Positions 1,179 through 32,142 of a stretch of 35,376 bases of DNA are shown piece after piece. The stretch is taken from positions 1 to 35,376 of the forward strand of contig JACQNQ010000028.1 of NCBI GenBank assembly GCA_016202965.1. The letters run 5' to 3'. The stretch is from Candidatus Zambryskiibacteriota bacterium. GTDB taxonomy: Bacteria > Patescibacteriota > Minisyncoccia > Phycocordibacterales > DATDWN01. Below the pieces are notes generated by a model. That model saw only the letters and a program-made list of their open reading frames with translations. It did not search any database and was not told where the DNA came from. Each line of letters opens with the position of its first letter. The stretch's first letter is position 1. The translations under genes and the position numbers were made by a program.

Positions 1179-1206
1179 GGTTGATTTTTATAGTATAACA
1201 AAATTG

Positions 1207-1358
1207 TTTGAAGTTCTGTAAGAATTTTTTCAGAAATACTCGCTTTTCCTGCGAAAAGCTCATTCTGTCCTCGGCCACAATTTTGTCAAGATGAATGCCT
1301 TGACAAAAACCGTGCTTGCGACCTGCGGATGTTCTGAAAAAATTCTTACAGAACTTCA
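1207..1358 (-). repeat. family X structured repeat, copy 1 (RNA-sense orientation = minus)
   Basis: Outer stem TTTGAAGTTCTGTAAGAATTTTTTCAGAA (1207-1235) pairs with TTCTGAAAAAATTCTTACAGAACTTCA (1332-1358). The ~85-nt core is about 90% identical to the reverse complement of the 28945-29030 core. Its right arm overlaps the last codons and stop of gatA. Confidence 0.8.
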
Positions 1359-2770
1359 TTCAAAAACTTTTTTCCCACTTCAAACAGTAAATCTTCTCCG
1401 GAATGAGGAGCCATAAATTGAATTCCCAGAGGCAATTTCTTGCCTGCCTGCGCAGGCAGGCCTTCCAATTCCATAAATCCGGATGGAATGGAAATAGCCG
1501 GCAAGCCGACTATGTTTGCCGTTACTGTGAAAACATCGGCAAGATAGACCGATAAGGGGTCGCTTTTCTCCCCTATTTTCCAAGCCGGTATGGGAGATGT
1601 CGGTGTTAAAACCAAATCAATTTCTTTAAACATTTCTGTAAATTCTTTTTTCAAAGCTGTTCGAGCTTTTTGTGCTTTGCCATAGTAAGCATCATAATAA
1701 CCGGCGGATAAAACATATGTGCCGAGAAGAATTCTTCTTCTGACTTCTTTGCCAAAACCTTGTCCTCGCGTCAGAACATAATCTTCCAGTAAATTTTTAC
1801 CGTCAATATGGAGACCGTACTTTACTCCGTCAAAGCGGGCCAGATTTGATGAAACTTCGGCAAAGTTAATAATATAATACAGAGCCAGACAGTTTGGCAA
1901 TTTTATATCTTTTATTTTATAACCAAGTTTTTCAAGATTTTTGACAACTTTTTTAAAGTTTTCTTTAACTTTCAAGTCAATTCCCTCCTGATTAATCAAG
2001 TCCCAAGGCACACCTATGATTAATTGTTTTTTGGAAAGAGAATCTGAATCAATTGATGTACTGTCCAAAACGTCACGACCTTTTATGGCTTCAAACAAAA
2101 TTTGAGCATCTTCCACTGTTTTCCCAAGCGACCCGATGACATCAAAAGACGATACCGCCGCCATAAGACCATATCGAGAAACTCCACCATATGTCGGTTT
2201 CATCCCGACAACTCCGCAAAAAGCAGCCGGGAGACGCAATGACCCTCCCGTGTCAGAACCGATAGCTCCGAGAGTCATATCACTGGCTACAGCCGCTGCC
2301 GAACCTCCGGAAGTTCCTCCCGGAACTCTGCTGGTATCATGAGGATTTTTTGTCACTCCATAAGCCGAGTTTTCGGTGGAACTACCCAAGGCAAACTCGT
2401 CCATATTTGTCCTACCTAAAAATACTGCCCCTTGTTTTTTTAGTTTTGAAATAACAGTAGAATCATATGGAGCCACAAAACCTTCTAAAATTTTGGAAGC
2501 TGAAGTGGCTTTTTTACCAGCAACCAAAATATTATCTTTTATAGCCAGAGGAATTCCCAAAAGTGGGTGGTTTTCTCCTTTACTAATTCTTTCATCGGCC
2601 ACTTTGGCTTGTTCCAAAACATCATCGTAAACTTCAAGATAAGCGTTAAGTTCCGGATTTTTCTTTTCTATTTCAGCAAGATATGTTTTGACCAAATCCA
2701 CAGCGGAAAAATCGCCTTTCATCAGATGTTCGTGCGCCGTTTTTATAGTTAATTTATCCAAATCTATCAT
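1346..2770 (-). CDS. gatA: Glu/Asp-tRNA amidotransferase subunit A
   Basis: 474 aa. Amidase signature (GGTSGGSAAAVAS, GSDTGGSLRLPA, IKDNI). It follows gatC on the same strand. Confidence 0.95.
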   Translation of the reverse strand: MIDLDKLTIKTAHEHLMKGDFSAVDLVKTYLAEIEKKNPELNAYLEVYDDVLEQAKVADERISKGENHPLLGIPLAIKDNILVAGKKATSASKILEGFVAPYDSTVISKLKKQGAVFLGRTNMDEFALGSSTENSAYGVTKNPHDTSRVPGGTSGGSAAAVASDMTLGAIGSDTGGSLRLPAAFCGVVGMKPTYGGVSRYGLMAAVSSFDVIGSLGKTVEDAQILFEAIKGRDVLDSTSIDSDSLSKKQLIIGVPWDLINQEGIDLKVKENFKKVVKNLEKLGYKIKDIKLPNCLALYYIINFAEVSSNLARFDGVKYGLHIDGKNLLEDYVLTRGQGFGKEVRRRILLGTYVLSAGYYDAYYGKAQKARTALKKEFTEMFKEIDLVLTPTSPIPAWKIGEKSDPLSVYLADVFTVTANIVGLPAISIPSGFMELEGLPAQAGKKLPLGIQFMAPHSGEDLLFEVGKKFLNEVL

Positions 2771-2783
2771 TTCATTGTAATTT

Positions 2784-2873: not shown

Positions 2874-2876
2874 GTT

Positions 2877-3332: not shown

Positions 3333-5453
<2,121 letters not shown>

Positions 5454-6020: not shown

Positions 6021-6026
6021 ATATTT

Positions 6027-6119
6027 AGTTTATAAATTTATAAAGTTTTTAAAGTTTGTAAATTGGAATGTGAATTTGAATCTACTTTATGAACTTTATA
6101 ACTTTATGAACTTTCAACT
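6027..6119. repeat. family Y hairpin repeat, copy Y2
   Basis: AGTTTATAAATTTATAAAGTTTTTAAAGTTTGTAAAT / loop TGGAATGTGAATTTGAATCT / ACTTTATGAACTTTATAACTTTATGAACTTTCAACT. Confidence 0.85.
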
Positions 6120-6121
6120 GC

Positions 6122-7603: not shown

Positions 7604-8187
7604 TGTACGGAAATTTGACCTGTGGACTGTACGGTCACAGTCTCGGTTTTCCCTTTCGGCGAAATCAGGATAACCTTTCCAATCAGAGCGCCTCCGACTG
7701 AAGCTCCGCTACTATTTGAAAAATTAATTTTAGCATCCGGATTTGGCCGCTTAAATGTGACTTGAATACCGGAAACTTCCGGTATCGGACAGCTTGCCCC
7801 GCATATTTGAGAAATTTTTATGCCGTTACGAAAAGTCATTTTTTCAACACATTCGGTCGATGAACTGCCGCATCCGCTGTTAACGTCATATAAATTGTTG
7901 CTATTTTTATCCACAAAAATATAATAATTAGTCGGGTCAGTCGCACTAAAATAAATGCCGTAAGCCAAATCAAATTGTCCGCTGCCGACAGATACTTCTT
8001 TGACGGACAAACCGTATGTTTGGGATTTCCTTACTCCGATAGCCAGTTCTTGGCCAGCAGAAGTCAACGCCAAATTATCATTAAATGTCCCGTAATTCCA
8101 AAGTACGGTTACCATAATGAGACTGACAATGCTGACAGAAACCATAAGCTCAATTAAGGTGAAACCAAGCTTAGTTATAAAGTTCAT
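7600..8187 (-). CDS. type IV minor pilin (GspH/FimT-like, tentative)
   Basis: 195 aa. [25 protein letters not shown] carries the prepilin motif. Its start overlaps the pilD stop (ATGA). Confidence 0.8.
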
Positions 8188-9056
8188 AAAGTTATAAAGT
8201 TTATAAAGTCATTCAAACCCAAGATATCAATGTGAGTGAAGAAAATTATAACGGTGGCAAGAACAAGAAAAGGAGCGAACGGCACTTCTGAATGAAGATT
8301 TACTTTTTGACTGACTGTTTTAGTCAATCGGCTGTGAATAAACAGGTAAATGCTCCATATGGCGCCGAGCCAGAAAGCCAGTATAACCGCGGATATGCCA
8401 AGAATAAAACCTAAAAGAGCGCCTATGCCAAAAACTAATTTTAAATCGCCAAAGCCAATCCATCTGCCTTTGGACAAAAGCCAGAGCAAAAGAAGAGGCA
8501 TAAATAAGATAAGCGGAGAGAGCAAATCAAAAATCCCTACCCGAGTGATTATAAAATTCTTGGAATAGAAAAATAATAAAAGTTTTATGACGGCCAATAT
8601 AATAAAGATGTACACAAAGATATTGGGAATGACTTTGTGCCGAATGTCGTAGATGACAATAACCAAGAGCAGACTGAAAACAAAAGCGTAATAAATAAAA
8701 AATAAGACTGAATAGAGCAGGCCGTACTGAAAACCGCTGTAGAGAGGCCACAAGTAGAATTGTCTCAAGGCGATACCCACAAAAATAAGGCCGGTCAAGA
8801 GTTCAACCAAAGGGTACTGCCATGATATTTTGGACTTGCAACGAGAACATTTGCCGGAAAGAAAAAGAAACGAAATAATCGGCACGAGTTCACGCCACGA
8901 AAGCTTGGCATTGCAAGTCAGGCAACGCGAACGGCCGAACAAAGGAGATGCGCCGGTGTTATAACGCAGTGAAATGACGTTTATAAAACTGCCAACGATT
9001 GTTCCTAAAATAAATATAAAGACTAAAGATATGACATCCATTTGTTTATTATACAA
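8184..9056 (-). CDS. pilD: prepilin peptidase (A24 family)
   Basis: 290 aa polytopic membrane protein. N-terminal Cys pairs (CLTCNAKL...CSRCKSKI) and the aspartyl-protease motif GFGDLKL. Confidence 0.9.
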
Positions 9057-9537: not shown

Positions 9538-9628
9538 ATTATATAAATTTATTAATATTATGTAAGGTCCCTGTATTGTATAACGAAAGTCTAAGTGTGG
9601 AAAGTCATTCTGTGGATAAATGCACGCC

Positions 9629-9709
9629 TATCCCTTAGCTAGCGGCATAATTTTTTAAAGTCCTCGGAAAAAATCCCTAGACTTTAAAAAATTATGTCGC
9701 TAAGGGATA
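9629..9709. repeat. long near-perfect hairpin between the GC-rich unit and the pilin gene
   Basis: TATCCCTTAGC..CATAATTTTTTAAAGTC (left) pairs with GACTTTAAAAAATTATG..GCTAAGGGATA (right), about 33 bp per arm. Loop is CTCGGAAAAAATCC. Confidence 0.85.
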
Positions 9710-9722
9710 ACGGTCAATAAAT

Positions 9723-10323: not shown

Positions 10324-10522
10324 AAATAATTATCAACAGTATACTGTGGGTAATTATTTTGTATACTTTGTAATTTGGTATAATATACTGTATCAAATTA
10401 ATTAACGTAAGAATTTTTATATAAACTTTCTTTTTTATTTCTTAACTATACGATATATCGTATAGTTAAGAAACGCTCAAAATTAGAAATTTATAATTTG
10501 GTACAATATACTGTACCAAATT
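10324..10522. repeat. cluster of palindromes and TATACTGT-containing repeats in a ~330-nt non-coding tract
   Basis: AAAATAATTATCAACAGTATACTGTGGGTAATTATTTT is a hairpin with an ACAGTATACTGT core. AATTTGGTATAATATACTGTATCAAATT (about 10372-10399) recurs as AATTTGGTACAATATACTGTACCAAATT (10495-10522). Confidence 0.8.
10438..10473. repeat. family P perfect palindrome, copy P2
   Basis: TTTCTTAACTATACGATATATCGTATAGTTAAGAAA is a 36-nt perfect palindrome with the same ACGATATATCGT centre as P1. Confidence 0.9.
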
Positions 10523-10525
10523 AAA

Positions 10526-11011
10526 TCAGGAATTTTTGTAAAAATACTTTTTCAGAAAAAATTGGGCGGTAATAACTATGACAATGGCCAGAAAAATGCC
10601 TGCTACAATATCAACAAAGTGATGAAGTCCCAAATAGACCCGCGAAAGCGAGACTAACAGACTTATAAAAAACAAAAACAATCCTACTTTTCGATTAAAA
10701 ACATATAGGACAGAAGCAATTAGAGCCGTCATCGTAGCGTGCGTTGACGGAAAACCATTACTGAAAATATGACTGACCAAAGGTTTGAAATCTATGACGA
10801 GAGAAGGCCTGGAATCATAATATATAAACTGCAAAAGAAACATTGACAGTATTGAGATAGGCAGAGCAATTGCCGACAATATAATTATCTTTTTTTGCTC
10901 AGATCTAGACTGCAAGAAAAAATATAGGCCACCAACAAAAAGCGGAACTAAAAAAAGATACTCTGCGGATATAATTGCCAGAAAATTGAACATATAGTAG
11001 AATGATACCAT
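10526..11011 (-). CDS. PAP2-family membrane phosphatase
   Basis: 161 aa polytopic protein. PAP2 motifs are YDSRPS, FPSTHA and SRVYLGLHHFVDIVAG. Confidence 0.8.
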   Translation of the reverse strand: MVSFYYMFNFLAIISAEYLFLVPLFVGGLYFFLQSRSEQKKIIILSAIALPISILSMFLLQFIYYDSRPSLVIDFKPLVSHIFSNGFPSTHATMTALIASVLYVFNRKVGLFLFFISLLVSLSRVYLGLHHFVDIVAGIFLAIVIVITAQFFLKKYFYKNS

Positions 11012-11064
11012 AAGAAATTATAAAATAATCACTTAACAGAACTTCCAGATTTGGATGAAATCCG

Positions 11065-11132
11065 AGGCGGACGAGAAAAAGAATTGGGGGCGTACTGTAG
11101 TACGGTGACAATTATTTTTTGAAGTCCAACAA
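11065..11132 (+). repeat. family Z conserved block, copy Z2 (upstream of the DsbA-like gene)
   Basis: AGGCGGACGAGAAAAAGAATTGG..(CGTACT-GT-AGTACG hairpin)..GGTGACAATTATTTTTTGAAGTCCAACAA. The 22-nt and 29-nt flanks are nearly identical to Z3, differing at one base of the 5' flank (C in Z2, T in Z3). Confidence 0.8.
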
Positions 11133-11246
11133 AGGTGAGGAGTGATGTTATCACTTCGCAAGACCTTGAACGTTTTGTAATCAAAATGTGAAAGGTGTAC
11201 TGCTCCTGTAAGGAGTTCGCCAAATGTGGAAGTTCATATACTCACA

Positions 11247-13795: not shown

Positions 13796-14413
13796 TTAAT
13801 CAAACCCTGTCATTGCGCGTTCGAGGCCAGAGGTTACAAATGTTTCAATAGCAAGATTTACTTTTTTGGAAAGTTTTTTCAAGACTGAAATTTCATCCGG
13901 TTTGAATTCACCTAAAATATGTTTCATTACTTTTTCCTCACCTTGCGGTTTGCGAATCTTGCCAGTTGGAGAGGTCGGCGAGATACCGACGCGGATGCGG
14001 GCAAATTTTTCCGTCTTAACTGCTTTGATGATTGACTCCAAACCTTTGTGTCCCCCGGAAGATTTGTTGAAAGAAATTCTGGCAGAACCGAAAGGTAAAT
14101 CCAAATCATCGTAAATAACAATCGTTTTCTCTGTTTTACCCGCCATAGCTTTAGCGGAGGCGGGCGCCTTACTGCTAGTTACTAACTGCTTAATACTATT
14201 CCCCGACTTATTCATAAATGTGTCCGGCAATATCAAAGTTACAGGAGATTTGCCCACTTTCACCTTTGAAACTTGCGCGTTCAATTTTTTATCCGCCTTC
14301 CACTCCGCTCCGATCGATTTTCCAAACCACTCCAAAAGCATCCTTCCGGTGTTATGACGAGTACCTTCATATTCTTCTCCGGGATTTCCCAAACCAACTA
14401 TTATGTATAACAT
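13796..14413 (-). CDS. pth: peptidyl-tRNA hydrolase
   Basis: 205 aa. LYIIVGLGNPGEEYEGTRHNTG, FMNKSG, DDLDLPFG and GGHKGL motifs. It carries a ~10-aa GC-rich insertion (KAPASAKAMAG). Confidence 0.95.
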   Translation of the reverse strand: MLYIIVGLGNPGEEYEGTRHNTGRMLLEWFGKSIGAEWKADKKLNAQVSKVKVGKSPVTLILPDTFMNKSGNSIKQLVTSSKAPASAKAMAGKTEKTIVIYDDLDLPFGSARISFNKSSGGHKGLESIIKAVKTEKFARIRVGISPTSPTGKIRKPQGEEKVMKHILGEFKPDEISVLKKLSKKVNLAIETFVTSGLERAMTGFD

Positions 14414-14432
14414 AAAAACATGATAACACTAA

Positions 14433-14604
14433 TAGATTTTCGTCTCAACAAATCCTTTTCAGAGCATGCGCAAGCCTTGAGCTGGTTTTGTCAACGACCC
14501 TCTGTAAGAAGGGCTCATTGACAAATCAAGGCTGAGCACCTGAACAAACTTTTCGCTGGAAAAGTTTGAGTCTCTGAAAAGAATTTGGGGAGAAAGAAAA
14601 TCTA
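14433..14604 (+). repeat. family X structured repeat, copy 3 (divergent member)
   Basis: Outer stem TAGATTTTC..CCTTTTCAGAG / CTCTGAAAAG..GAAAATCTA. Stem B is AGCCTTGA/TCAAGGCT. Stem C TTGTCAA/TTGACAA carries an extra inner hairpin. The hairpin CTTTTCGCTGGAAAAG is conserved. Confidence 0.75.
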
Positions 14605-14697: not shown

Positions 14698-14732
14698 TTG
14701 TGTCAAACGAAGTCGCACTATATACTTACGCC

Positions 14733-15335
14733 ATGAACGAAGAAAAAATACCTCCATCACCTCAAAAAAAACTGGCCTTCGTTGAAATAGTAAAAGAGAT
14801 TGTCATATTTGCCATGATTGCTTTCGGTATCGTCCTTCCTTTCCGTCTATACATTGCCGAGCCGTATATTGTGGACGGAGCATCAATGGACCCGACATTT
14901 CATACAGGAGACTATCTCATCGTGGACAAACTTTCATACGAAATAGGAAAACCTCAGAGAAACACCGTGGTTATTTTTAGATATCCGAACGACCCCAGAA
15001 AAAGTTTTATCAAACGCATCGTCGGACTGCCGGGCGAGACAATAACCATGAAAGACAATGTTGTCATTGTAATCAATCCGGAAAATCCAAAAGGCCTGAA
15101 TTTAGACCAGTCATATGTTGTTCACAAATGTTTGAAAACGACAAACAACTGTGTCATTTCATTTGAAGAAACTCTTGGAGTTGACGAGTACTATGTTTTG
15201 GGAGACAACAGAGCGGAAAGTTTTGACTCCCGTTCATGGGGACCGTTAAATAAAAAATACTTGCTGGGCAAACCGATACTCCAGTTGTGGCCGTTAAAAC
15301 AAATCAGTCTGTTTCCCGGAAAAGACAGAAAGTAG
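14733..15335 (+). CDS. lepB: signal peptidase I (S26)
   Basis: GASMDPTF (catalytic Ser), FIKRIVGLPGE (catalytic Lys box) and GDNRAESFDSRSWG. The ORF track opens at a GTG at 14700; the ATG at 14733 is the preferred start. Confidence 0.9.
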   Translation: MNEEKIPPSPQKKLAFVEIVKEIVIFAMIAFGIVLPFRLYIAEPYIVDGASMDPTFHTGDYLIVDKLSYEIGKPQRNTVVIFRYPNDPRKSFIKRIVGLPGETITMKDNVVIVINPENPKGLNLDQSYVVHKCLKTTNNCVISFEETLGVDEYYVLGDNRAESFDSRSWGPLNKKYLLGKPILQLWPLKQISLFPGKDRK

Positions 15336-15336
15336 T

Positions 15337-15398
15337 AAAAAGTTCATAAAGTTAAAATAAATTTGCTTTACTTTACAAACTTTATAATTTTATAAACT
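15337..15398. repeat. family Y hairpin repeat, short copy Y3
   Basis: AAAAAGTTCATAAAGTTAAAA / TAAATTTGCTTT / ACTTTACAAACTTTATAATTTTATAAACT. Confidence 0.7.
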
Positions 15399-15404
15399 AA
15401 ATCT

Positions 15405-16538
15405 ATGAAACAACAAAAAATCAAAGGGGAAGGTTCTTATCTGGCTACCGAGTGTGATAAAGTTGGCGAGATTGCTTTGCATTACGGTTTTACCATAATC
15501 AAGCCGCCACAGATTAGCCCTTCGGATATTTCCAAAGCCAAGCAATTCAAGGATTTTGACTACTACAACGACGTCGAAGAAAAAGTGGCTTTAACCAGTT
15601 GGTATATTGATCGCGACCTTCACAACCAAAGTCAGCTGATAGCTATTCATTATAAAAAACCGCGCGAAAATTTATACAGTTTTGAGATTATGGGCAGTGA
15701 CAAAAGCATCAGCGAAGGACTGCTTTTAAAATGCGCTTTGGCGGTACTCTATGAACTTGGCTGGACAAATCTATATATAGACATAAACAGTATCGGGGAT
15801 AAAGAGTCGGTCGGAAAATTTGAACGAGAACTCGGAGCTTACTTTCGCAAACACACCCATACATTGTCGGCAAAATTAAATCAAAAATTCAGAAAAAATC
15901 ACTATTCTATACTGACTGATAACTCGCCTGAGAGCCAATCTTTCAGACAAGACGCTCCACAAACGGTTGGCTCACTGTCCGATATTGCCAGAGTCCATTT
16001 CAAAGAAGTTCTGGAGTTTCTGGAAACATTCAGTGTCGCTTATAAAATCAAACCGAATGTCTTATCCAATAAACTTTACGCTTCATATACCGTTTTTGAA
16101 ATACGAAACGATGACCAGTTATTGGCTTACGGTTACAGATACAACCACTTGGCCAGAAAAATTGGAGCAAAAAGAGATATACCGTCTGTCGGTCTGACGG
16201 TCCTGGTCAAAAAACAACCGAAGTTTTCCAAAAAAGTCATCATCAAAAATATAAAGAAACCGAAATTTTATCTGGTTCAACTCGGAGAAACGGCCAAACT
16301 GAAAGTTTTAAATGTCATAGAGATGCTTCGCAGGGAAAAAATTCCCGTCTATCACTCCATAACAAAAGATAAAATGGTGGGACAGCTTTCCGGCGCTGAA
16401 TATATGAAAGCTACACACGTTTTGGTCATGGGACAAAAAGAAGCTGTGGAAAACACAATGATAGTCCGCAGCATTGCAAGCCGTGAGCAAGAAACCGTGC
16501 CTTTGGACAAACTTGTTAAATTTTTAAAAAAGTTATAG
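15405..16538 (+). CDS. HisRS-like class II aminoacyl-tRNA synthetase homologue with degenerate catalytic motifs
   Basis: 377 aa. HisRS-type layout: EGLLLKCALAVLYELGWTNLYIDINSIGD and a C-terminal HGTP anticodon-binding-like domain (FYLVQLGE...THVLVMGQKE...VRSI). HYKKPRENLYSFEIMG replaces motif 2 (RYERPQ.GR.RQF.Q). AYGYRYNHL replaces GGRYD.L. The motif 3 Gly/Arg pattern is absent. Confidence 0.6.
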   Translation: MKQQKIKGEGSYLATECDKVGEIALHYGFTIIKPPQISPSDISKAKQFKDFDYYNDVEEKVALTSWYIDRDLHNQSQLIAIHYKKPRENLYSFEIMGSDKSISEGLLLKCALAVLYELGWTNLYIDINSIGDKESVGKFERELGAYFRKHTHTLSAKLNQKFRKNHYSILTDNSPESQSFRQDAPQTVGSLSDIARVHFKEVLEFLETFSVAYKIKPNVLSNKLYASYTVFEIRNDDQLLAYGYRYNHLARKIGAKRDIPSVGLTVLVKKQPKFSKKVIIKNIKKPKFYLVQLGETAKLKVLNVIEMLRREKIPVYHSITKDKMVGQLSGAEYMKATHVLVMGQKEAVENTMIVRSIASREQETVPLDKLVKFLKKL

Positions 16539-16544
16539 AAAGGG

Positions 16545-16681
16545 AAATAATTAAAATCTCTTTCTTCTCATATCTCTCGAAGAGACACGCATAAATCCTT
16601 GCTAGGATTTTGCTGTTCTCGCGCCAGTCGCGCTGTGAAAGTCTCTTCTCGAGATATGATTCGACGAGATTTTAATTATTT
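16545..16681. repeat. long compound hairpin (V1) between the HisRS-like gene and rpsU
   Basis: AAATAATTAAAATCTC (16545-16560) pairs with GAGATTTTAATTATTT (16666-16681). The second tier is CATATCTCTCGAAGAGAC / GTCTCTTCTCGAGATATG. Inner hairpins are AAATCC..GGATTT and GCGC..GCGC. Confidence 0.85.
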
Positions 16682-16723
16682 TGAAAGTTGAAATGAAAAT
16701 ATAGATATGCTAGAGTGGACGCC

Positions 16724-16969
16724 ATGATAAATGCGGAAGTGGTCAAAACGGGCAATGAAAATAATGTCAATCTGATAAGACGCTTTACCAAAAAAGTGCA
16801 GGGAGCGGGCATTTTACCGCGCGTCCGAAGCATCCGCTATTCCTCGAGAAAACTGTCGGAATACGTCAAGAAGAAAAAAACTCTCAAATCTTTAAAAAAA
16901 CGGGAAGCTATAGCCGAGCTGATTAAAATGGGAAAGATGAGTGAGTACACAAAAGGGGGCAAGAGGTAA
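16724..16969 (+). CDS. rpsU: 30S ribosomal protein S21
   Basis: Small, very basic protein. VVKTGNENNVNLIRRFTKKVQGAGILPRVRSIRYSSRKLSEYVKKKK matches the S21 pattern. The ORF track opens at 16715 (GTG). Confidence 0.8.
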   Translation: MINAEVVKTGNENNVNLIRRFTKKVQGAGILPRVRSIRYSSRKLSEYVKKKKTLKSLKKREAIAELIKMGKMSEYTKGGKR

Positions 16970-16974: not shown

Positions 16975-17095
16975 AATTTCTAATTGACCTAATTATACTA
17001 ATTTCTAAATAAATCCCAATGTCTAAATCCTAAATTGGGTATTGGAACTTAGGTATTGTTTAGGTTAATTAGAATAATTAGAAATTAGGTTAATT
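16975..17095. repeat. family W hairpin repeat, copy W1
   Basis: AATTTCTAATTGACCTAATTATACTAATTTCTAAATAAATCCCAATG... folds back on ...TAGGTTAATTAGAATAATTAGAAATTAGGTTAATT. Its left arm is identical to the reverse complement of 20244-20280. Confidence 0.85.
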
Positions 17096-17098
17096 TTA

Positions 17099-17458: not shown

Positions 17459-17511
17459 AAGTTGAATTTGCATTTACTTTTAACTTTCGACTTTTAACTT
17501 TTAACTTTTCT
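17456..17511. repeat. family Y repeat, asymmetric copy Y4
   Basis: GAAAGTT GAATTTGCATTT ACTTTTAACTTTCGACTTTTAACTTTTAACTTTT. This creates the spurious N-terminal extension of the ftsA ORF in the ORF track. Confidence 0.7.
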
Positions 17512-18690
17512 ATGCTTCGCAACATTACAGTTGGAATAGATATCGGCACATACCAAGTCAAAGTGGTAATCTCTGAACTTGTCAAAATTGACGGAAAACC
17601 CACTACCCGCGTTCTGGGCACAGGACTGGTGGAATCAAAAGGCCTTCGACACGGCTATATTATAAACAACAAAGACGTCACGGAAAGTATCAGAGGAGCA
17701 GTGACACTTGCCGAAAAAACAGCCGGAGTAAAAGCGCATAGAGCCTTTGTGGCTGTCGGAGGAATAGGTCTCTCCGGAATAGTTTCCACCGGCAATACCA
17801 TAATAAGCCGGGCCGATTTGGAAATAACCGACCTTGATATGGAAAAGGTCTGTCAAATATGCGAGGATGATTTGCCTACCGCCGTAATCCAGAACCGCCG
17901 AATTTTGCACAGTATTCCAATTTCTTACAAGATAGATGGCAAACCGGTTATAGCTAAAACTCCACTCGGAATGAAAGCCGCCAAACTTGAAGTTAAAATG
18001 CTTTTTGTGACCTGTCTTGAACCGCACTTAAACGACTTGCTCCAAGCGGTGGAGGAAGCCGGCATTGAAGTTATAGATTGTCTGGCTTCTCCCATTGCCG
18101 CTTCTTTTGTCACTTTATCCAAACAGCAAAAAATGGTCGGGTGCCTTTTGGCCAATATCGGCGCGGAAACCATTTCCATTGTTGTCTTTGAAAATAACAT
18201 ACCTATTTCTCTGGAAGTTTTTCCAATAGGTTCAACGGACATTACCAACGATATCGCTTTAGGGCTAAAAATTCCTCTGGAAGAAGCGGAGAATCTAAAA
18301 ATCGGCGGACTGGGCATAGGCTCGTTCTCAAAGAAAAAACTGGACGAGATTATTTCGGCCAGATTGTCCGATATGTTTGAGCTGATAGAAAATCATTTGA
18401 AAAAAATCGGCAGGAGCGGGCTTTTGCCGGCAGGAATTTTTATAAGCGGTGGCGGAAGCGGTATCGCTACTGTTGAAGATTTCGCCAAAGTGGCTTTGAG
18501 ATTGCCTTCACGTTTAGCTACTCTTTCATTATCAGATAAAAAAAATATAAAAGATTCAACCTGGGCCGTTGCTTACGGATTGTGCATGCTTGGAAACTCA
18601 AAAGAAGAAAAGGTCAATCTCGGGCTGCGGCCGACCATTAACAGTTACGGTATGAAAATTTTCGGCTGGTTTAAACAGTTTCTGCCATAA
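17512..18690 (+). CDS. ftsA: cell division protein FtsA
   Basis: Actin-fold ATPase. It starts MLRNITVGIDIGTYQVKVV and contains GIFISGGGSGIA. It lies upstream of ftsZ. The start is chosen at the ATG after the repeat. Confidence 0.9.
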   Translation: MLRNITVGIDIGTYQVKVVISELVKIDGKPTTRVLGTGLVESKGLRHGYIINNKDVTESIRGAVTLAEKTAGVKAHRAFVAVGGIGLSGIVSTGNTIISRADLEITDLDMEKVCQICEDDLPTAVIQNRRILHSIPISYKIDGKPVIAKTPLGMKAAKLEVKMLFVTCLEPHLNDLLQAVEEAGIEVIDCLASPIAASFVTLSKQQKMVGCLLANIGAETISIVVFENNIPISLEVFPIGSTDITNDIALGLKIPLEEAENLKIGGLGIGSFSKKKLDEIISARLSDMFELIENHLKKIGRSGLLPAGIFISGGGSGIATVEDFAKVALRLPSRLATLSLSDKKNIKDSTWAVAYGLCMLGNSKEEKVNLGLRPTINSYGMKIFGWFKQFLP

Positions 18691-18876: not shown

Positions 18877-18989
18877 GACTTGCTCAGGTGGATGCAGTTC
18901 TAGTCTAGGCGGATGAGAAAAAGAATTGGAGCCTGCCTGAGTGCGTAGGTGACAATTATTTTTTGAAGTCCAACAACAAAATGCGCCGC
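18877..18989 (+). repeat. family Z element, copy Z3, in the ftsZ 5' region
   Basis: Outer stem GGACTTGC (18877-18884) / GCAAGTCC (18982-18989). The conserved block at 18907-18976 matches Z2 except for the central hairpin, which differs in sequence but still pairs (CCTGC...GCGTAGG). Confidence 0.8.
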
Positions 18990-19021
18990 CTGTGCAAGTC
19001 CGACAATAATCAAAATATAAT

Positions 19022-20167
19022 ATGCCTCAGATAAAACCAGACGTAGAAGCTTTTGCCAGAATCAAAGTTCTCGGTATCGGCGGGTCAGGTGGAAATTCCT
19101 TGAACCATATGGTCAACTCAAAAGTCAGAGGAGTTGACTTTGTGGCGGTCAATACGGATTCTCAAGACCTTCATCATTCTCTGGCAAAACGCAAAATCCA
19201 TATCGGCAAGAATTTGACTCATGGACTGGGAGCCGGCATGAATCCGGAACTCGGTAAGCGCGCGGTAGAAGAAACGAAGGAGGAAATCCAGGAAGTCTTG
19301 AAAGGAGCCGATATGGTTTTTATTGCCGGCGGACTTGGCGGAGGCACTTGCACCGGAGCCGCTCCGACAGTTGCTCGTGTGGCAAAAGAAATGGGAGCTT
19401 TGACTGTAGCCATAGTAACCAAACCTTTTTTCTTTGAAGGCCAGCAAAGAATGAAAATTGCCGAAGTCGGACTTGAGGAACTTCGCCAGGCGGTGGACGC
19501 TATTATTGTCATTCCAAACGACCGGCTCTTGGCCTCAGTCAGCAAAGAAACTACGGCAAAAAACGCTTTTGCCATGTGCGACGATGTTTTGAAGTCCGCC
19601 GTGGAAGGCATCTCCGACCTTATCACCACTCCCGGTATAATAAACATTGACTTTGCCGATATCAGAGCGGTTATGGAAAACGCCGGACCGGCCTTGATGG
19701 GTATTGGCACAGCTACCGGAGAAAAACGGGCGGAAGAAGCGGCAAAATCGGCCATCAATTCCCCTCTTTTGGAAGTTTCCATAAATGGAGCGAAAGGTGT
19801 GTTATTTTCAATCGCCGGTGGAGACGACCTAGGCATGTTTGAAATCCAGGACGCGGCAAAGATTATCACCGAATCGGTTGACCAAAACGCCAAAATTATT
19901 TTCGGTACCGTTCGAGACGAAAAATTGAAAAAAGGCGAGGTCAAAATCACCGTTATCGCCTCAAACTTCCCGGAAAACTTTACCAAGAAAACACTCTTCC
20001 AGTCGCAACCGACGAAAGAAAAAGAAGTGGAAGACCTGTCTGCGCAGGCAGGAAAAGGCAAAATTTATAATTCCGTTCCAGCACCAAAAAATAACGACAA
20101 AAATGAAGTGGACGAGGACGATTGGGGCGCAGTACCGGCATTTTTGAGAAGAAGCAAACTTAAGTAA
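19022..20167 (+). CDS. ftsZ: cell division GTPase FtsZ
   Basis: 381 aa. Tubulin signature GLGGGTCTGAAP, NTDSQDL, and a C-terminal conserved peptide (DDWGAVPAFLRR). Confidence 0.97.
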   Translation: MPQIKPDVEAFARIKVLGIGGSGGNSLNHMVNSKVRGVDFVAVNTDSQDLHHSLAKRKIHIGKNLTHGLGAGMNPELGKRAVEETKEEIQEVLKGADMVFIAGGLGGGTCTGAAPTVARVAKEMGALTVAIVTKPFFFEGQQRMKIAEVGLEELRQAVDAIIVIPNDRLLASVSKETTAKNAFAMCDDVLKSAVEGISDLITTPGIINIDFADIRAVMENAGPALMGIGTATGEKRAEEAAKSAINSPLLEVSINGAKGVLFSIAGGDDLGMFEIQDAAKIITESVDQNAKIIFGTVRDEKLKKGEVKITVIASNFPENFTKKTLFQSQPTKEKEVEDLSAQAGKGKIYNSVPAPKNNDKNEVDEDDWGAVPAFLRRSKLK

Positions 20168-20282
20168 ATTAATCTGATTTCTAATTATTCTAATTGACCT
20201 AAATAAATCCCGATGATCAATTTGGACATTGGGATTTGGTTATTATTTAGAAATTAGTATAATTAGGTCAATTAGAAATTTT
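20168..20282. repeat. family W hairpin repeat, copy W2 (inverted relative to W1)
   Basis: TTTCTAATTATTCTAATTGACCTAAATAAATCCCGATG... pairs with ...TATTTAGAAATTAGTATAATTAGGTCAATTAGAAATT. It accounts for the spurious N-terminal extension of the next ORF. Confidence 0.85.
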
Positions 20283-20285
20283 ATT

Positions 20286-21224
20286 ATGAATCTGTATGAT
20301 TTAATAATTATCGGTGGCGGGCCGGCTGGAGTTTCTGCCGGTGTGTACGCCGCAAGAAAAAGACTGAAAACTTTGCTCATCGCGCCTGAATTCGGCGGAC
20401 AAAGTATTGTGTCGGAAGGAATAGAAAACTGGATCGGCACAGTCAAAATCACCGGGGCTGAACTTGCTGAAAATTTCAAAAAACATCTGCAAGCATACGC
20501 CAATGATTCAGTTACTATAAAAGAGGGTGAATATGTTACAGATATGTCAAGGACTCCCCTTGACACTGAAAATGCATTTAAAGTTTTGACAGACAAAGGC
20601 GAGTATAAAAGCAAAACTGTTCTTATCGCCACAGGCGCTTCAAGGAGAAAACTGGAAATTCCGGGGGCGAAAGAGTTCGATAACAAGGGCCTGACATACT
20701 GCGCTTCCTGTGATGGCCCACTTTTTGCCGGACAGGATGTGGTAGTTATTGGCGGAGGCAACGCCGCTTTTGAAACATCTGCTCAACTTCTCGCCTACTG
20801 CAAATCAGTAACACTTTTAAATCGCAGTCAAAATTTTCGGGCAGACGAAATCACAATAGCCAAATTAAAAACAAATCCAAAATTCAAAATTATCACAAAT
20901 GCGCTGCCAAAAGAAATTAAGGGCGAGCAATTTGTTAAAAGTATTATCTGGGAAGATGCAGTGACGAAAGAAAATCATGAAATCCAAACCCCTGGTATTT
21001 TCGTAGAAATTGGACTCATACCAACAACAAGTTTTGCCAAAAATATATTGGAGCTAAACAAAATAGGTCAAATCCCGACTGACCCGCGCACTCAGCAAAC
21101 AAAAGTTCCCGGTATCTGGGCCGCCGGCGACGCCACAGACGGACTCTACCACCAAAACAATATCGCCTCCGGCGACGCAGTGAAAGCTTTGGAAGATATT
21201 TACCTGCATCTTCATGTAAAATAA
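20286..21224 (+). CDS. trxB: thioredoxin reductase-like FAD/NAD(P) pyridine nucleotide-disulfide oxidoreductase
   Basis: MNLYDLIIIGGGPAGVSAGVYAARK (FAD GxGxxG), redox-active CASCDG, VVVIGGGNAAFE (NAD(P)H site) and GIWAAGDA. Confidence 0.85.
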   Translation: MNLYDLIIIGGGPAGVSAGVYAARKRLKTLLIAPEFGGQSIVSEGIENWIGTVKITGAELAENFKKHLQAYANDSVTIKEGEYVTDMSRTPLDTENAFKVLTDKGEYKSKTVLIATGASRRKLEIPGAKEFDNKGLTYCASCDGPLFAGQDVVVIGGGNAAFETSAQLLAYCKSVTLLNRSQNFRADEITIAKLKTNPKFKIITNALPKEIKGEQFVKSIIWEDAVTKENHEIQTPGIFVEIGLIPTTSFAKNILELNKIGQIPTDPRTQQTKVPGIWAAGDATDGLYHQNNIASGDAVKALEDIYLHLHVK

Positions 21225-28900: not shown

Positions 28901-29080
28901 AATAATTTTCAAAACTACGGCGTGGGCATAACTTTTCCGGAGCATCCACAGGTCGCAAGCATGGTTTTTGTCAAGGCATTCATCTTGACAAAATTGCGAC
29001 CGAGGACAGAATAAATTTTTCGCTGGAAAAGTTTATGTCTCCGGAAAAGTTATGACGAGCCAAGAGTTTTGAAAATTATT
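28901..29080 (+). repeat. family X structured repeat, copy 2
   Basis: Outer stems AATAATTTTCAAAACT/AGTTTTGAAAATTATT and CATAACTTTTCCGGAG/CTCCGGAAAAGTTATG. Stem B is GGTCGCAA/TTGCGACC. Stem C is TTTTTGTCAAGG..CTTGACAAAA. The hairpin is TTTTCGCTGGAAAAG. Confidence 0.85.
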
Positions 29081-29713: not shown

Positions 29714-29720
29714 AATGGCA

Positions 29721-29798
29721 GTTAAAAGTTAAAGGTAAAAAGTTAAAAGCGAATGTATTTTGTGTTTTCTTTTAACCTTTAACTTTCTACTTTTAACT
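29721..29798. repeat. family Y hairpin repeat, copy Y5
   Basis: AGTTAAAAGTTAAAGGTAAAAAGTTAAAAG / CGAATGTATTTTGTGTTTT / CTTTTAACCTTTAACTTTCTACTTTTAACT. Confidence 0.85.
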
Positions 29799-29806
29799 AT
29801 TTTATC

Positions 29807-31686: not shown

Positions 31687-32013
31687 TCAAGCCACCCTTA
31701 AGTAAGCAGTTGGATGAGAACGGTATTCGTGGCGGCCGTATATGGTGATGAGCTTTTCTTCGGGCTCTCTGTGATATTTCACCTTGATACGCCCCTCATC
31801 AGTTTTGGCAGAGCCACTAACCCAAATTACCAGGTTTTCTCCTCGTGAACGGAGGTATAAGAAACATCCCCCATTCGCCGTCTGAGCTCCGATAACAGAC
31901 ATCTCCTTGTTGTTCATGCGATACGCCTGAAAGCGAGCAAACCGTTCCGCCAAAATACCGATGCGAAACATCCATTCAAATTCTCGAAAAAATCTTTTCC
32001 AAAATTTCTTCAT
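31687..32013 (-). CDS. orphan small protein (108 aa from the SD-led ATG)
   Basis: GGAG lies 6 nt before the ATG at 32013; the ORF track opens at a TTG at 32025. Basic, aromatic-rich N-terminus MKKFWKRFFREFEWMFRIGILAERF, then a beta-rich-looking domain. I recognise no family. Confidence 0.65.
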   Translation of the reverse strand: MKKFWKRFFREFEWMFRIGILAERFARFQAYRMNNKEMSVIGAQTANGGCFLYLRSRGENLVIWVSGSAKTDEGRIKVKYHREPEEKLITIYGRHEYRSHPTAYLRVA

Positions 32014-32050
32014 GTTTTTCTCCAAAGAACAAATTTTAAACCTGGGATTT

Positions 32051-32111
32051 CTCCCACCAAAATTTTTAAATTTTAAAAACTTTGGTGGGAGCCGAACAAA
32101 TTGCGTTCGGC
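32051..32111. terminator. tandem hairpins separating the first and second island ORFs
   Basis: CTCCCACCAAA...TTTGGTGGGAG (11 bp) followed by GCCGAAC-AAATTGC-GTTCGGC (7 bp). Confidence 0.55.
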
Positions 32112-32142
32112 TTTGAAAGAACTATCGGGTTGATCAATCTAA

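What the first reader, a model, noticed from the sequence alone, without database searches (positions are those of the whole stretch)
28901..29080. Family X: a ~170-nt multi-stem element in three copies with compensatory base changes and orientation-specific G-U pairs
The copies are at 1207-1358 (inverted), 14433-14604 and 28901-29080, and all share one architecture. A long outer stem has completely different sequence in each copy. Stem B encloses stem C (TTGTCAA/TTGACAA). A conserved hairpin CTTTTCGC(T/A)GGAAAAG follows. Stem B is GGTCGCAA/TTGCGACC in copy 2 and AGCCTTGA/TCAAGGCT in copy 3, so it is fully compensated. In copy 1, read on the minus strand, stem B is GGTCGCAA/TTGTGGCC, which forms two G-U pairs. 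On the opposite strand those positions would be A-C mismatches. The inner part of the outer stem also covaries (CAGAA/TTCTG, CCGGAG/CTCCGG, TCAGAG/CTCTGA). The cores of copies 1 and 2 are about 90% identical over ~85 nt. The short ORFs that overlap them are in different frames, so the conservation is not protein-coding. This pattern fits a selected RNA or ssDNA structure rather than a plain terminator. Copy 1 is sense to its operon, copy 2 is antisense to its neighbours, and copy 3 lies in a divergent promoter region. That placement argues for a mobile or independently transcribed element.
Basis: seen in the sequence. Interest (0 to 1): 0.7.

Follow-up and report, generated by a model that had tools for sequence, protein, structure and literature searches.

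The report
New structured repeat in Parcubacteria genomes
The three copies are real members of an undescribed family of about 130-230-base non-coding insertions in a subset of ultra-small Parcubacteria (CPR) genomes; one strand folds into a very long stem capped by a three-way junction, the fold is kept by many compensatory changes, and the elements come and go between neighbouring genes, but what they do is still unknown.

Summary
Observation confirmed. Copies at 1204-1363 (-), 14433-14604 (+) and 28901-29080 (+) share one fold: a long P1, then P2/P2a/P3 and hairpin P4 (RNAfold z -8 to -11.5).

A pattern scan found 24 more copies in Parcubacteria-type MAGs. On 29 copies, 92.7% of cells pair and 37 of 47 pairs show double changes (covariation 0.51, against 0.06-0.10 when slid). 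G-U outnumbers A-C 44:12, and G-A outnumbers C-U 71:3. The named strand folds better in 26 of 29 copies.

There is no Rfam 15 match, no phage or plasmid match, and no paper.

The family is one branch (X-type) of a wider set sharing a P1 "chassis". A fourth, M-type member lies at 16545-16681 (-).

The elements are gained and lost. None occurs in 609 kb around gatA of 80 relatives. One gene junction holds X-type, M-type or no element in genomes 85-100% identical there. Orientation to neighbouring genes is unbiased.

Best reading (0.45): a non-autonomous, mobile structured repeat, selected as a single strand, probably RNA. Rivals are an sRNA gene family and a folded-ssDNA element. Function is untested.

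The parts
28901..29080 (+). X-type copy c3 (the finding): the whole element, filling the spacer between the tRNA-Arg(cct) 5' end (28900) and the stop codon of a minus-strand glutaredoxin gene (29076-29078)
   Evidence: 131.7 bits
28901..28942 (+). c3 P1 5' arm: outer helix 28901-28916, inner helix 28927-28942
   Evidence: I6 (42 nt, 83% complementary to 29039-29080)
29039..29080 (+). c3 P1 3' arm: inner helix 29039-29054, outer helix 29065-29080. It overlaps the stop codon of the glutaredoxin gene.
28945..29006 (+). c3 P2-P2a-P3 arm: P2 TCC 28945-28947 / GGA 29004-29006; P2a GGTCGCAA 28951-28958 / TTGCGACC 28994-29001; P3 28966-28976 / 28983-28993
29011..29036 (+). c3 P4 hairpin with the conserved GCNG loop (29022-25)
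14433..14604 (+). X-type copy c2. It has the canonical chassis and an extra P3a hairpin, and lies between divergent pth (13796-14413, -) and lepB (14700-15335, +).
   Evidence: (139.8 bits)
1204..1363 (-). X-type copy c1, short type. Its 5' arm 1363-1346 is the last five codons plus stop of gatA. Its 3' arm 1221-1204 is an inverted copy of that sequence.
   Evidence: I11; 125.2 bits
16545..16681 (-). M-type member of the same superfamily: same P1 chassis, short P2 hairpin, different P4. It lies between the ORF 15405-16538 (+) and an S21-like ORF 16715-16969 (+), antisense to both. My identification of the second ORF as ribosomal protein S21 rests on reading its translation; it was not scanned.
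   Evidence: -61.3 kcal/mol, z -8.5; 115.3 bits; 25.7 bits with the X-type model

Best explanation
Family X is one branch (X-type) of a superfamily of non-coding, palindromic insertion elements, about 120-230 nt long, found in a subset of Parcubacteria/Minisyncoccia genomes.

Shared anatomy:
- A P1 'chassis': an A-rich 5' flank and a T-rich 3' flank; an outer helix of 7-16 bp; in most copies an asymmetric internal loop GUUGA(G)/(U)GAGAAA; and an inner helix of 17-19 bp ending in CUUUUCAGAG/CUCUGAAAAG.
- A three-way-junction core carried on that chassis.
- In the X-type, one arm is P2-P2a-P3 (plus or minus P3a) and the other is the P4 hairpin with loop GCNG.

How I think it works:
- The elements behave as non-autonomous mobile or selfishly maintained DNA. 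They are inserted into gene spacers, including between abutting genes. They sit in either orientation, vary in presence between close relatives, and are homogenised among copies within a genome.
- Selection preserves the fold of one defined strand. I take the working form to be RNA (about 55:45 over folded ssDNA).
- That RNA would be made by read-through or from the AT-rich flank.
- The junction core would be the part recognised by an unidentified trans-acting factor that copies or maintains the element.
- The very long P1 would act on the host as a by-product, as a two-way transcription block and a double-strand RNA processing site.

Shown: the family, the fold, its strand polarity, the gain/loss pattern and the modular chassis plus core.
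Inferred: RNA as the working form, the trans factor, and the terminator or processing effect.
For: Fold:
- z -8 to -11.5.
- 29 of 48 pairs compensated on 25 full-length copies, including the outermost helix.
- 92.7% of cells paired, 37 of 47 pairs with double changes, covariation 0.508 against 0.057-0.096 when slid, 0 of 500 shuffles as high.
- M-type, 94.6% paired, 30 of 41 pairs with double changes.

Strand polarity:
- GU/UG 44 against AC/CA 12; GA/AG 71 against CU/UC 3.
- the named strand is more stable in 26 of 29 X and 8 of 8 M copies (mean -5.0 and -6.9 kcal/mol).

Family and distribution:
- 24 true copies in about 13 MAGs.
- extra divergent copies, up to three within 2.5 kb (L020).
- no copy in 609 kb around gatA of 80 relatives.
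- the M-type model finds only 3 new copies in 818 kb.

Gain and loss:
- the gatA-to-downstream-gene spacer is 17-90 nt without an element in syntenic relatives.
- the window and L022 each carry an element where the other has none.
- the ABC-F|YgjP junction holds an X-type, an M-type, a 229-nt M-like element, or nothing (genes 1-3 nt apart or overlapping) in genomes whose ABC-F is 85-100% identical.

Within-genome homogenisation:
- L001 and L009 cores are 97% identical at different loci. L001 is closer to that paralogue than to its positional orthologue L010.

Other points:
- No orientation bias: among the copies lying between two co-directional genes, my hand count is about 9 sense and 9 antisense.
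- Modularity: the M-type model scores X-type copies at 36-62 bits.
- No transposase or reverse transcriptase next to the copies whose neighbours were scanned.
Against: - No autonomous partner, no defined ends and no consistent target-site duplication were found. Only L109 shows a 6-bp direct repeat, ATTTTA. A transposition mechanism is therefore not shown.
- Several copies sit at the same position in genomes whose flanking genes are only about 70-77% identical and still fold well: c3/L011, L006/L025 and L002/L023. That fits a host function as well as a persistent selfish element.
- About half the copies are antisense to all neighbouring genes, with only a few bases to spare (L027, window M-type, c3). 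Sense-strand RNA from them needs promoters I could not demonstrate. This weakens 'RNA' relative to 'ssDNA'.
- Arm-to-arm template switching can keep palindromes paired without selection, so part of the P1 covariation may be mutational rather than selective.
- Copy c2 folds better on the opposite strand over its core (+9.2 kcal/mol).
Confidence: 0.45

Rival explanations
1. A family of independently transcribed small RNA genes with a host function, for example a protein-binding or sponge RNA. Each copy would have its own promoter in the AT-rich 5' flank and would use P1 as a two-way terminator. The copies would spread by duplication and recombination.
For: - The fold is strand-specific, with conserved unpaired junction and loop bases.
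- Copies are kept at the same position in diverged genomes.
- Many 5' flanks, or the P1 bases themselves, contain TAAAAT/TAAATT-like hexamers. This is my own reading, not a statistical test.
- About 13 of 25 copies lie tail-to-tail with a protein gene.
Against: - The distribution is extremely patchy among relatives.
- Elements are inserted between abutting or overlapping genes, with 0-7 nt left for a promoter.
- Some copies follow a terminator by only 12-15 nt (L003, L026).
- The 5' flank of c3 is a tRNA gene on the other strand.
- There is no unpaired U-tract right after P1.
- No promoter motif was shown to be enriched.
Confidence: 0.22
2. A folded single-stranded DNA element. The strand-specific hairpin and junction would be the substrate of an HUH/Y1 or tyrosine-recombinase-type enzyme, as for REP/REPIN-RAYT, IS200/IS605 ends or integron attC sites. 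RNA would play no part.
For: - Polarity-specific structure without any orientation bias towards transcription.
- No consistent target-site duplication and fuzzy ends.
- Gain and loss at gene junctions.
- The named strand is also more stable with DNA parameters in 26 of 29 and 8 of 8 copies.
Against: - No RAYT, TnpA or integrase was seen in the window or among the neighbours that were scanned. Whole genomes were not available.
- c1 and c3 have opposite polarity within one 35-kb stretch, and the M-type differs again. There is thus no simple replication-strand rule of the IS200/IS605 kind.
- The conserved tetranucleotide or core sites typical of REP or attC are absent.
Confidence: 0.2
3. A new self-cleaving or otherwise catalytic RNA carried by a repeat, as hammerhead, twister or HDV-like ribozymes are.
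For: - A three-way junction with conserved junction purines (CAGAG/AGAR-CGAA) and freely varying stems.
- Many dispersed copies in any orientation.
Against: - No match to any known ribozyme family, even at E up to 10.
- No pseudoknot-type covariation found.
- Nothing points to a cleavage site.
Confidence: 0.06
4. Ordinary long intrinsic terminators, or a plain DNA MITE whose terminal inverted repeats merely happen to fold. The core would carry no function of its own.
For: - Long hairpins without a core are common in these genomes: window 9626-9712 and the L022 26-bp palindrome.
- A-run and T-run flanks.
- Many copies abut stop codons.
Against: - Internal helices P2a, P3 and P4 covary, and unpaired bases and tandem G-A pairs are conserved on one strand only. 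A terminator or a double-stranded TIR does not require that.
- c2 lies in a divergent promoter region where no terminator is needed.
- The terminator scan finds none at c2.
Confidence: 0.05

Closest known systems
ERIC/IRU elements of enterobacteria and vibrios
   Same: An imperfect palindrome of about 130 nt. Lies in gene spacers in either orientation and is transcribed within host mRNAs as a long hairpin. Variants arise by internal insertion or deletion at fixed points. Copies are kept at the same position across species. No known transposase. (My knowledge of the literature.)
   Different: No sequence relationship. Family X has a covarying three-way-junction core and a modular chassis, with clear strand polarity (G-U, G-A). 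It occurs in Parcubacteria and is far patchier.
REP / REPIN populations mobilised by RAYT (Y1 HUH) transposases
   Same: Non-autonomous and hairpin-forming. Extragenic, with many copies per genome. No target-site duplication. Persists long-term at fixed sites. Presence is patchy between lineages.
   Different: A REP unit is a 20-40-nt imperfect palindrome with a conserved 5' tetranucleotide, and a REPIN is an inverted REP pair. Here there is a single 30-45-bp stem with a branched tip. No such tetranucleotide was seen, and no RAYT was seen in the sequence held.
Bacterial MITEs such as Correia/NEMIS, RUP, BOX and Rickettsia palindromic elements
   Same: Short, non-coding and dispersed. Folds as RNA. 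Can sit at gene ends and alter termination or processing. RNase III cleavage is known for Correia. (My knowledge.)
   Different: MITEs have conserved terminal inverted repeats and a fixed target duplication, and derive from an IS. Here the ends are fuzzy, a target duplication is not consistent, and the conserved part is the internal junction rather than the termini.
Integron attC sites and IS200/IS605 (PATE) ends
   Same: Structure is conserved more than sequence. One strand is the active form. Stems change by compensation.
   Different: attC and IS200/IS605 ends have defined core or cleavage motifs, sit next to their recombinase or in arrays, and follow replication-strand rules. None of these features is seen here.
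Repetitive hairpin-forming elements of compact organelle genomes (e.g. sponge mitochondria, PMC2800124, title and abstract seen)
   Same: Hairpin repeats that repeatedly invade the spacers of a very compact genome, with no known mobilising enzyme.
   Different: Unrelated hosts and sequences. Those elements are simple hairpins without a conserved branched core.
Orphan structured RNA motifs of Rfam found by comparative genomics (e.g. raiA, HEARO, OLE classes)
   Same: Found from covariation alone. Conserved junction bases. Function unknown at discovery.
   Different: Those are usually single-copy or tied to particular genes. This one is multi-copy, insertion-polymorphic and absent from Rfam 15.

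Membership tests
Any Rfam 15 family (4227 models) | Score at or above the family's gathering threshold, or at least a consistent weak match | tested here: not met
   whole window, only tRNAs; 18 loci, only rRNA, tRNAs and one group II intron fragment elsewhere. at E up to 10: only scattered chance-level hits that differ between copies.
Known self-cleaving ribozymes (hammerhead, twister, twister-sister, pistol, hatchet, HDV-like, hairpin) | Match to the family covariance model or its conserved core | tested here: not met
   No such family is listed at E up to 10 for c2, c3 or L015. By my own inspection, the junction lengths (2/9/6 nt) do not fit the hammerhead core.
Plain intrinsic terminator | Unbranched G+C-rich stem of about 5-15 bp followed directly by an unpaired U-tract, at the 3' end of a gene on the same strand | tested here: not met
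   P1 is 30-45 bp with a covarying branched tip. The scan finds no terminator at c2. c2 is in a divergent region and c3 is antisense to its neighbours.
MITE | Terminal inverted repeats conserved among copies | tested here: inconclusive
   The chassis (AAATCTC-GTTGAG... / ...TGAGAAA-GAGATTT) is shared by most copies. It is replaced by unrelated sequence in c1, c3, the L020 copies and the four elements at the ABC-F|YgjP site.
MITE | Target-site duplication of fixed length | tested here: not met
   Flanks inspected. Only L109 has a direct repeat (ATTTTA). Elsewhere the flanks simply continue the palindrome.
MITE | A related autonomous IS with the same ends | not testable with these tools
   No transposase lies next to the copies whose neighbours were scanned. 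Whole genomes of carriers could not be scanned.
REP / REPIN-RAYT | 20-40-nt REP unit with a conserved 5' tetranucleotide, paired in inverted orientation | tested here: not met
   Alignments A2 and A5 show one long stem with a three-way junction and no repeated REP unit.
REP / REPIN-RAYT | A single-copy RAYT gene in element-bearing genomes | not tested
   This needs complete proteomes of carrier and non-carrier genomes.
Integron attC | R''/L''...L'/R' core sites and location in cassette arrays next to an integrase | tested here: not met
   No such end motifs in A2. The copies are solitary between housekeeping genes.
Retron or other RT-associated ncRNA | A reverse transcriptase gene directly adjacent | tested here: not met
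   Pfam scans of most ORFs of at least 80 aa in the window, and of the L020 neighbours, show no RT.
Riboswitch or cis-regulatory leader | Constant position upstream of, and on the same strand as, a recurring gene family | tested here: not met
   Neighbours and orientations differ from copy to copy.
Trans-acting sRNA gene | Own promoter, and a discrete transcript with defined ends | not testable with these tools
   Only sequence was available. Promoter-like hexamers are common in this AT-rich DNA, and none was shown to be enriched.

The most novel reading that the evidence does not exclude
The element is a new kind of RNA-level or folded-ssDNA-level mobile unit. The conserved three-way junction would be a catalytic or recognition module: a new ribozyme class, or the handle for an unknown nuclease or recombinase. 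The long P1, whose arms are copy-specific and can include neighbouring gene sequence (as in c1), would be processed into locus-specific small RNAs. In effect this would be a bacterial hairpin-precursor system, in organisms whose RNA biology is almost unexplored.
Probability: 0.1. Interest if true: 0.9.

Novelty: new variant of a known kind. Interest (0 to 1): 0.6.

Why it matters
CPR/Parcubacteria genomes are tiny and tightly packed, and almost nothing is known about their non-coding RNA or their mobile DNA. This window spends about 650 of its 35,376 bases on four copies of one structured, non-coding element, yet related genomes lack it.

The fold has the level of covariation support usually taken as proof of a functional RNA, and it sits on an insertion-polymorphic repeat. 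It therefore offers:
1. A ready covariance model for annotating these genomes.
2. A test case for how selfish structured elements survive in minimal genomes.
3. A candidate for a new RNA-protein or ssDNA-protein system, if a co-occurring protein can be found.

If it turns out to be only a REP/ERIC-like passenger, it still explains many 'conserved intergenic structures' that automated scans of CPR genomes will keep flagging.

Tried and rejected
1. Known RNA family: rejected. Rfam at gathering and at E up to 10 gave nothing.
2. tRNA association, suggested by c3 abutting tRNA-Arg: rejected. Only c3 and its positional orthologue L011 are next to a tRNA.
3. Phage or plasmid origin: no exact-pattern hit in viral contigs and no blastn hit in the phage or plasmid collections.
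4. Pseudoknot or other long-range pairing: the mutual-information scan found nothing convincing.
5. A conserved 5' leader 'ACCAC(T)AAG' with a -10 box as evidence for an own promoter: dropped. In c2 this stretch belongs to the predicted extended -10 promoter of the divergent pth gene. It is absent from many copies, and in L027 it appears in the opposite sense.
6. An apparent bias for the 3' end to abut a convergent gene's stop codon: not robust. Hand tally: about 13 convergent-stop against 10 co-directional-start on the 3' side, and 9 sense against 9 antisense within co-directional gene pairs. The automatic boundary extension overshoots.
7. Search for orphan chassis arms flanking an ORF (an autonomous copy): my patterns were either too loose or mis-specified, so the result is uninformative.
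8. Spread across CPR classes as far as Saccharibacteria: doubtful. The MAGs with that title have ABC-F proteins 81-84% identical to Minisyncoccia/Paceibacterota/Zambryskibacteria proteins, and they share 69-71% identical DNA with Parcubacteria-type loci.
9. Literature: six full-text searches found no description of this element.
10. Weak model hits at window 31999-32128 and 9644-9698 are ordinary hairpins, not family members.
Full report
**1. What is in the window**

I place them at:
- c1: 1204-1363, minus strand
- c2: 14433-14604, plus strand
- c3: 28901-29080, plus strand

The repeat finder links 1218-1344 to 28930-29056 as a 127-nt inverted match, 82% complementary. It also reports the long arms of c1 (1204-1235 / 1332-1363, 94%) and of c3 (28901-28942 / 29039-29080, 83%).

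Each copy folds on its own into the same shape:
- c3: -81.0 kcal/mol, z -11.5
- c2: -73.5 kcal/mol, z -8.3
- c1: -70.9 kcal/mol, z -10.0
In each case none of 200 shuffles folded as well.

The shape has these parts:
- A long closing stem, P1.
- A 3-bp helix P2 (UCC/GGA in c1 and c3, UGC/GCA in c2).
- An 8-bp helix P2a.
- P3 (UUUUGUCAA/UUGACAAA). In c2 it carries an extra small hairpin, P3a.
- A purine-rich joining strand.
- Hairpin P4 (CUUUUC-GCNG-GAAAAG).

The P4 motif occurs exactly three times in the window, once per copy.

Read that way, every sequence statement is correct. This includes the two G-U pairs of c1, and a c1-c3 core identity of 81/89, or 91%.

**2. Context in the window**

The window is core chromosome of a Parcubacteria-type bacterium. 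Pfam scans show gatC, gatA, ligA, four pilin-like genes with a prepilin peptidase, pth, lepB, ybeY, ftsA, ftsZ, tsaD, a class I tRNA synthetase, secA and others. Six tRNA genes are present. There is no transposase or reverse transcriptase.

- c1 follows gatA on the same strand. Its 5' arm contains the last five gatA codons and the stop codon.
- c2 lies between divergent pth and lepB. A predicted extended -10 promoter for a leaderless pth mRNA has its -35 box inside c2's 5' arm.
- c3 fills the whole spacer between the 5' end of tRNA-Arg(cct) and the stop codon of a 78-aa glutaredoxin gene. Both are on the other strand.

**3. The family outside the window**

I scanned one genome per species for P4 plus the start of the 3' arm. 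This gave 28 loci, of which 24 are true copies. By their record titles they come from Zambryskiibacteriota, Paceibacterota, Minisyncoccia, 'Parcubacteria group' and 'Saccharibacteria' MAGs, often several per MAG.

The 'Saccharibacteria' titles are doubtful. An ABC-F protein next to one such copy is 81-84% identical to proteins named Minisyncoccia, Paceibacterota or Zambryskibacteria. These loci also share 69-71% identical DNA with Parcubacteria-type loci, including this window. I therefore treat the family as Parcubacteria/Minisyncoccia-wide, not CPR-wide.

Most copies share more than the core. P1 has a conserved 'chassis':
- An A-rich 5' flank.
- An outer helix (AAAUCUC/GAGAUUU).
- An asymmetric internal loop (GUUGAG / UGAGAAA).
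- An inner helix of about 17 bp ending in CUUUUCAGAG/CUCUGAAAAG.
- A U-rich 3' flank.

c2 has this chassis. In c1 and c3 it is replaced by unrelated sequence that is still paired.

**4. Is the fold supported?**

Yes, strongly.

- On 25 full-length copies, RNAalifold predicts 48 pairs. Of these, 29 are compensated, including pairs in the outermost helix.
- A covariance model (R1) recovers 29 full copies at 69-156 bits. Some have a different P4 stem but the same GCNG loop.
- On their alignment:
  - 92.7% of 1363 cells form standard pairs (shuffled: 75.5%).
  - 37 of 47 pairs have changes on both sides (shuffled: 22).
  - The covariation score is 0.508, against 0.057-0.096 when partners are slid by 1-3 columns.
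  - None of 500 shuffles reaches any observed value.

Two caveats apply. The alignment was fitted to the model. Four 'double changes' in P3 are a one-base register shift in copies with an extra U, not true covariation.

P2a is the most variable helix, and seven of its eight pairs are compensated.

The polarity is clear:
- G-U/U-G cells outnumber A-C/C-A cells 44 to 12.
- Tandem G-A/A-G cells outnumber C-U/U-C cells 71 to 3.
- The named strand folds better than its complement in 26 of 29 X-type and 8 of 8 M-type copies, with RNA and with DNA parameters.
- c2 is an exception over its core (+9.2 kcal/mol).

No pseudoknot signal was found.

**5. A wider superfamily, with a fourth member in the window**

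Weak model hits led to 'mini' elements with the same chassis but a different core. They have a short G+C hairpin (CGCG-ACGG-CGCG) in place of the P2a-P3 arm. They also have an A+U-rich P4 (AAAUCYY-AGNA-RRGAUUU) set in GCAAA...UAUGCGUG. I call these M-type.

One lies in the window at 16545-16681 on the minus strand. It sits between a + strand ORF (15405-16538) and an ORF I read as ribosomal protein S21 (16715-16969, not scanned). It is antisense to both (-61.3 kcal/mol, z -8.5).

Six M-type copies give 94.6% paired cells and 30 of 41 pairs with double changes. Their model (R2) scores X-type copies at 36-62 bits, and R1 scores the window's M-type copy at 25.7 bits. The two types are therefore related through the chassis.

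With filters off, the window holds exactly three X-type copies and one M-type copy.

**6. The elements are gained and lost**

(a) Eighty metagenome loci encode GatA 53-76% identical to the window's, 609 kb in all. They contain no X-type copy.
- R2 found one M-type copy (L039) among the GatA loci it searched (L029-L097).
- By contrast, this window has four elements in 35 kb.
- In the syntenic relatives (gatC-gatA-downstream gene), the spacer after gatA is 17-90 nt and holds no element.

(b) The window and L022 (Parcubacteria GW2011_GWA2_40_14; genes 66-77% identical in DNA) each carry an element where the other has none.
- c2's site in L022 holds only a 26-bp perfect palindrome.
- L022's element lies between ybeY and the next gene, where the window has a 60-nt spacer.

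(c) The sharpest case is the junction between an ABC-F gene and a ygjP-like gene. The percentages are ABC-F protein identity to L027.

| Locus | ABC-F identity | State of the junction |
|---|---|---|
| L027 | 100% | X-type element |
| L113 | 92% | M-type element |
| L114 | 90% | M-type element |
| L109/L110 | 91% | 229-nt M-like element, 17-bp perfect terminal inverted repeat flanked by ATTTTA on both sides |
| L112 | 87% | empty; genes 3 nt apart |
| L115 | 85% | empty; genes 1 nt apart |
| L111 | 85% | empty; genes overlap |

The four occupants have the same orientation, antisense to both genes. Their P1 sequences are unrelated.

(d) Within one MAG, copies at different loci can be 97% identical (L001/L009). 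L001 is closer to that paralogue than to its positional orthologue L010.

(e) Some copies are nevertheless old. c3 and L011 occupy the same tRNA-Arg/glutaredoxin spacer. L006/L025 and L002/L023 are positional orthologues in genomes about 70-75% identical in the flanking DNA. All still fold.

**7. Placement and ends**

Neighbouring genes are unrelated housekeeping genes. My hand tally covers copies between two co-directional genes. About nine are sense and nine antisense. Others lie in divergent or convergent spacers.

Many copies touch a stop or start codon with 0-16 nt to spare. Some follow an ordinary terminator by only 12-15 nt.

The ends are not sharp. The flanks usually continue the palindrome, with an A-run on the left and a T-run on the right. 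No target duplication recurs; L109 is the single exception.

In c1, the 5' arm is native gatA sequence. It encodes ...FLNEVL*, compared with FLGEVE* and FLGEMM* in relatives. The 3' arm is its inverted copy (16 of 18 bases), followed by TTTTG.

Two explanations fit c1:
- The core landed in the loop of a pre-existing long terminator whose 5' arm was coding. Such a hairpin exists in L032, and long core-less hairpins are common here, for example window 9626-9712.
- The stem was extended afterwards by intrastrand template switching, the known route by which quasi-palindromes become perfect. This is established knowledge, and I did not test it here.

The first explanation cannot be general, because the empty ABC-F|ygjP junctions have no hairpin at all.

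**8. What it most likely is**

Shown:
- An undescribed, modular family of structured, non-coding insertions.
- One strand of fixed polarity is under constraint.
- Presence and absence are highly dynamic, and copies are homogenised within genomes.

Inferred:
- It is a non-autonomous mobile or selfishly maintained element.
- Its junction core is the handle for an unidentified trans-acting factor.
- Its working form is a single strand. I lean to RNA, at 55:45 over ssDNA, for two reasons. The non-canonical pairs (G-U, tandem G-A) and the conserved purine-rich joining strand are typical of RNA motifs. At least half of the copies must also be transcribed in the sense direction with their neighbours.
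- For the host, the main effect would be a very stable hairpin that blocks or punctuates transcription in both directions.

My confidence in this package is 0.45.

The main rivals are:
- A family of independently transcribed small RNA genes (0.22). It is weakened by the patchiness and by the lack of room for promoters at several sites.
- A purely ssDNA substrate of an HUH- or recombinase-type enzyme (0.20). It is favoured by the indifference to orientation, and weakened by the absence of any such gene or replication-strand rule in the sequence held.
- A new ribozyme (0.06).
- A plain terminator or DNA MITE (0.05).

**9. Comparison with what is known**

No Rfam 15 family matches at any threshold tried. 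No phage or plasmid record matches, and the exact-pattern scan of viral contigs found nothing. Six full-text literature searches found no description.

In behaviour it is closest to ERIC/IRU elements and to REPIN populations. It is more distantly like Correia-type MITEs, attC sites and the hairpin repeats of compact organelle genomes. It fails the defining tests of each:
- There is no REP unit or conserved tetranucleotide.
- There is no fixed target duplication.
- There are no core sites and no adjacent enzyme gene.

It differs from all of them in having a covarying three-way-junction core on an exchangeable chassis. I therefore rate it a new variant of a known kind (interspersed structured palindromic repeats), and of moderate to high interest. 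The fold is as well supported as accepted RNA families. The host group is poorly known. The mechanism is open and testable.

Noticed in passing
window 16545-16681 (-): A fourth member of the superfamily (M-type): same P1 chassis, short G+C hairpin and a different P4. It is antisense between the ORF 15405-16538 and an S21-like ORF (my reading of the translation; not scanned).
   Followed up: yes
window 16975-17096 and 20166-20286: A second, unrelated palindromic repeat family (AATTTCTAATTGACCTAATTATACTAATTTCTAAATAA...). The arms are 72-78% complementary between the two loci, and each locus folds into a long A+T-rich hairpin (z -3.5 to -4.6). One lies after the S21-like gene and one after ftsZ.
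   Followed up: partly
window 9626-9712; window 32040-32110; L022 2773-2826: Very long hairpins without any core: a near-perfect stem of about 33 bp (z -8.3), two tandem hairpins, and a 26-bp perfect palindrome in L022 at the site that holds c2 in the window. Long palindromes seem to be a general habit of these genomes.
   Followed up: partly
window 2779-2875, 6022-6123, 8176-8217, 15336-15398: Repeats of the AAAGTTTATAAAGT / ACTTTATAAACTTTATAAC type in spacers just upstream of start codons. They may be promoter or operator repeats.
   Followed up: no
window 11063-11190 and 18906-19020: A conserved non-coding block of about 75 nt, including an identical 29-mer (GGTGACAATTATTTTTTGAAGTCCAACAA). 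It lies upstream of a DsbA-like gene and upstream of ftsZ. It may be a shared leader or a small structured element.
   Followed up: partly
window 5387-5442: A tandem array of the 7-nt unit ACTTAGT (about 8 copies) in the spacer upstream of ligA.
   Followed up: no
window 17467-17513 and 29720-29805: TTTTAACTTTTAAC-type short repeats. They occur in the spacer before ftsA (the site that carries an X-type element in L022) and upstream of the DivIC-like gene.
   Followed up: no
window 10367-10401 and 10490-10524: A 35-nt direct repeat (91%), 123 nt apart. Each copy is itself palindromic (TAATTTGGTATAATATACTGTATCAAATTA). It lies downstream of the PAP2 gene 10526-11011 (-).
   Followed up: no
window 14420-14448 (-): A predicted extended -10 promoter (TTGAGA, 17 nt, TG-n-TATCAT) ending 6 nt before the pth start codon. 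This implies a leaderless pth mRNA. Its -35 box lies inside the 5' arm of c2.
   Followed up: partly
L001, L003, L006, L009, L010, L015, L018, L023, L026-L028 (records CAYQQL, CAZPGQ, CAZDPS): MAGs titled 'uncultured Candidatus Saccharibacteria' look like Parcubacteria/Minisyncoccia. Their ABC-F protein is 81-84% identical to proteins from those groups, and they share 69-71% identical DNA with Parcubacteria-type loci.
   Followed up: partly
L109 11453-11681 (and L110): A 229-nt M-like element with a 17-bp perfect terminal inverted repeat (CGAATTAACTATTTTTA) flanked by ATTTTA on both sides. This is the only candidate target-site duplication seen.
   Followed up: partly
L012 1-615 and 985-1097; L112 282-1610: A group II intron D1-D4 match about 370 nt after the 3' end of a 16S rRNA gene. 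Separately, an IS110-type Transposase_20 ORF in one of the genomes whose ABC-F|ygjP site is empty.
   Followed up: no
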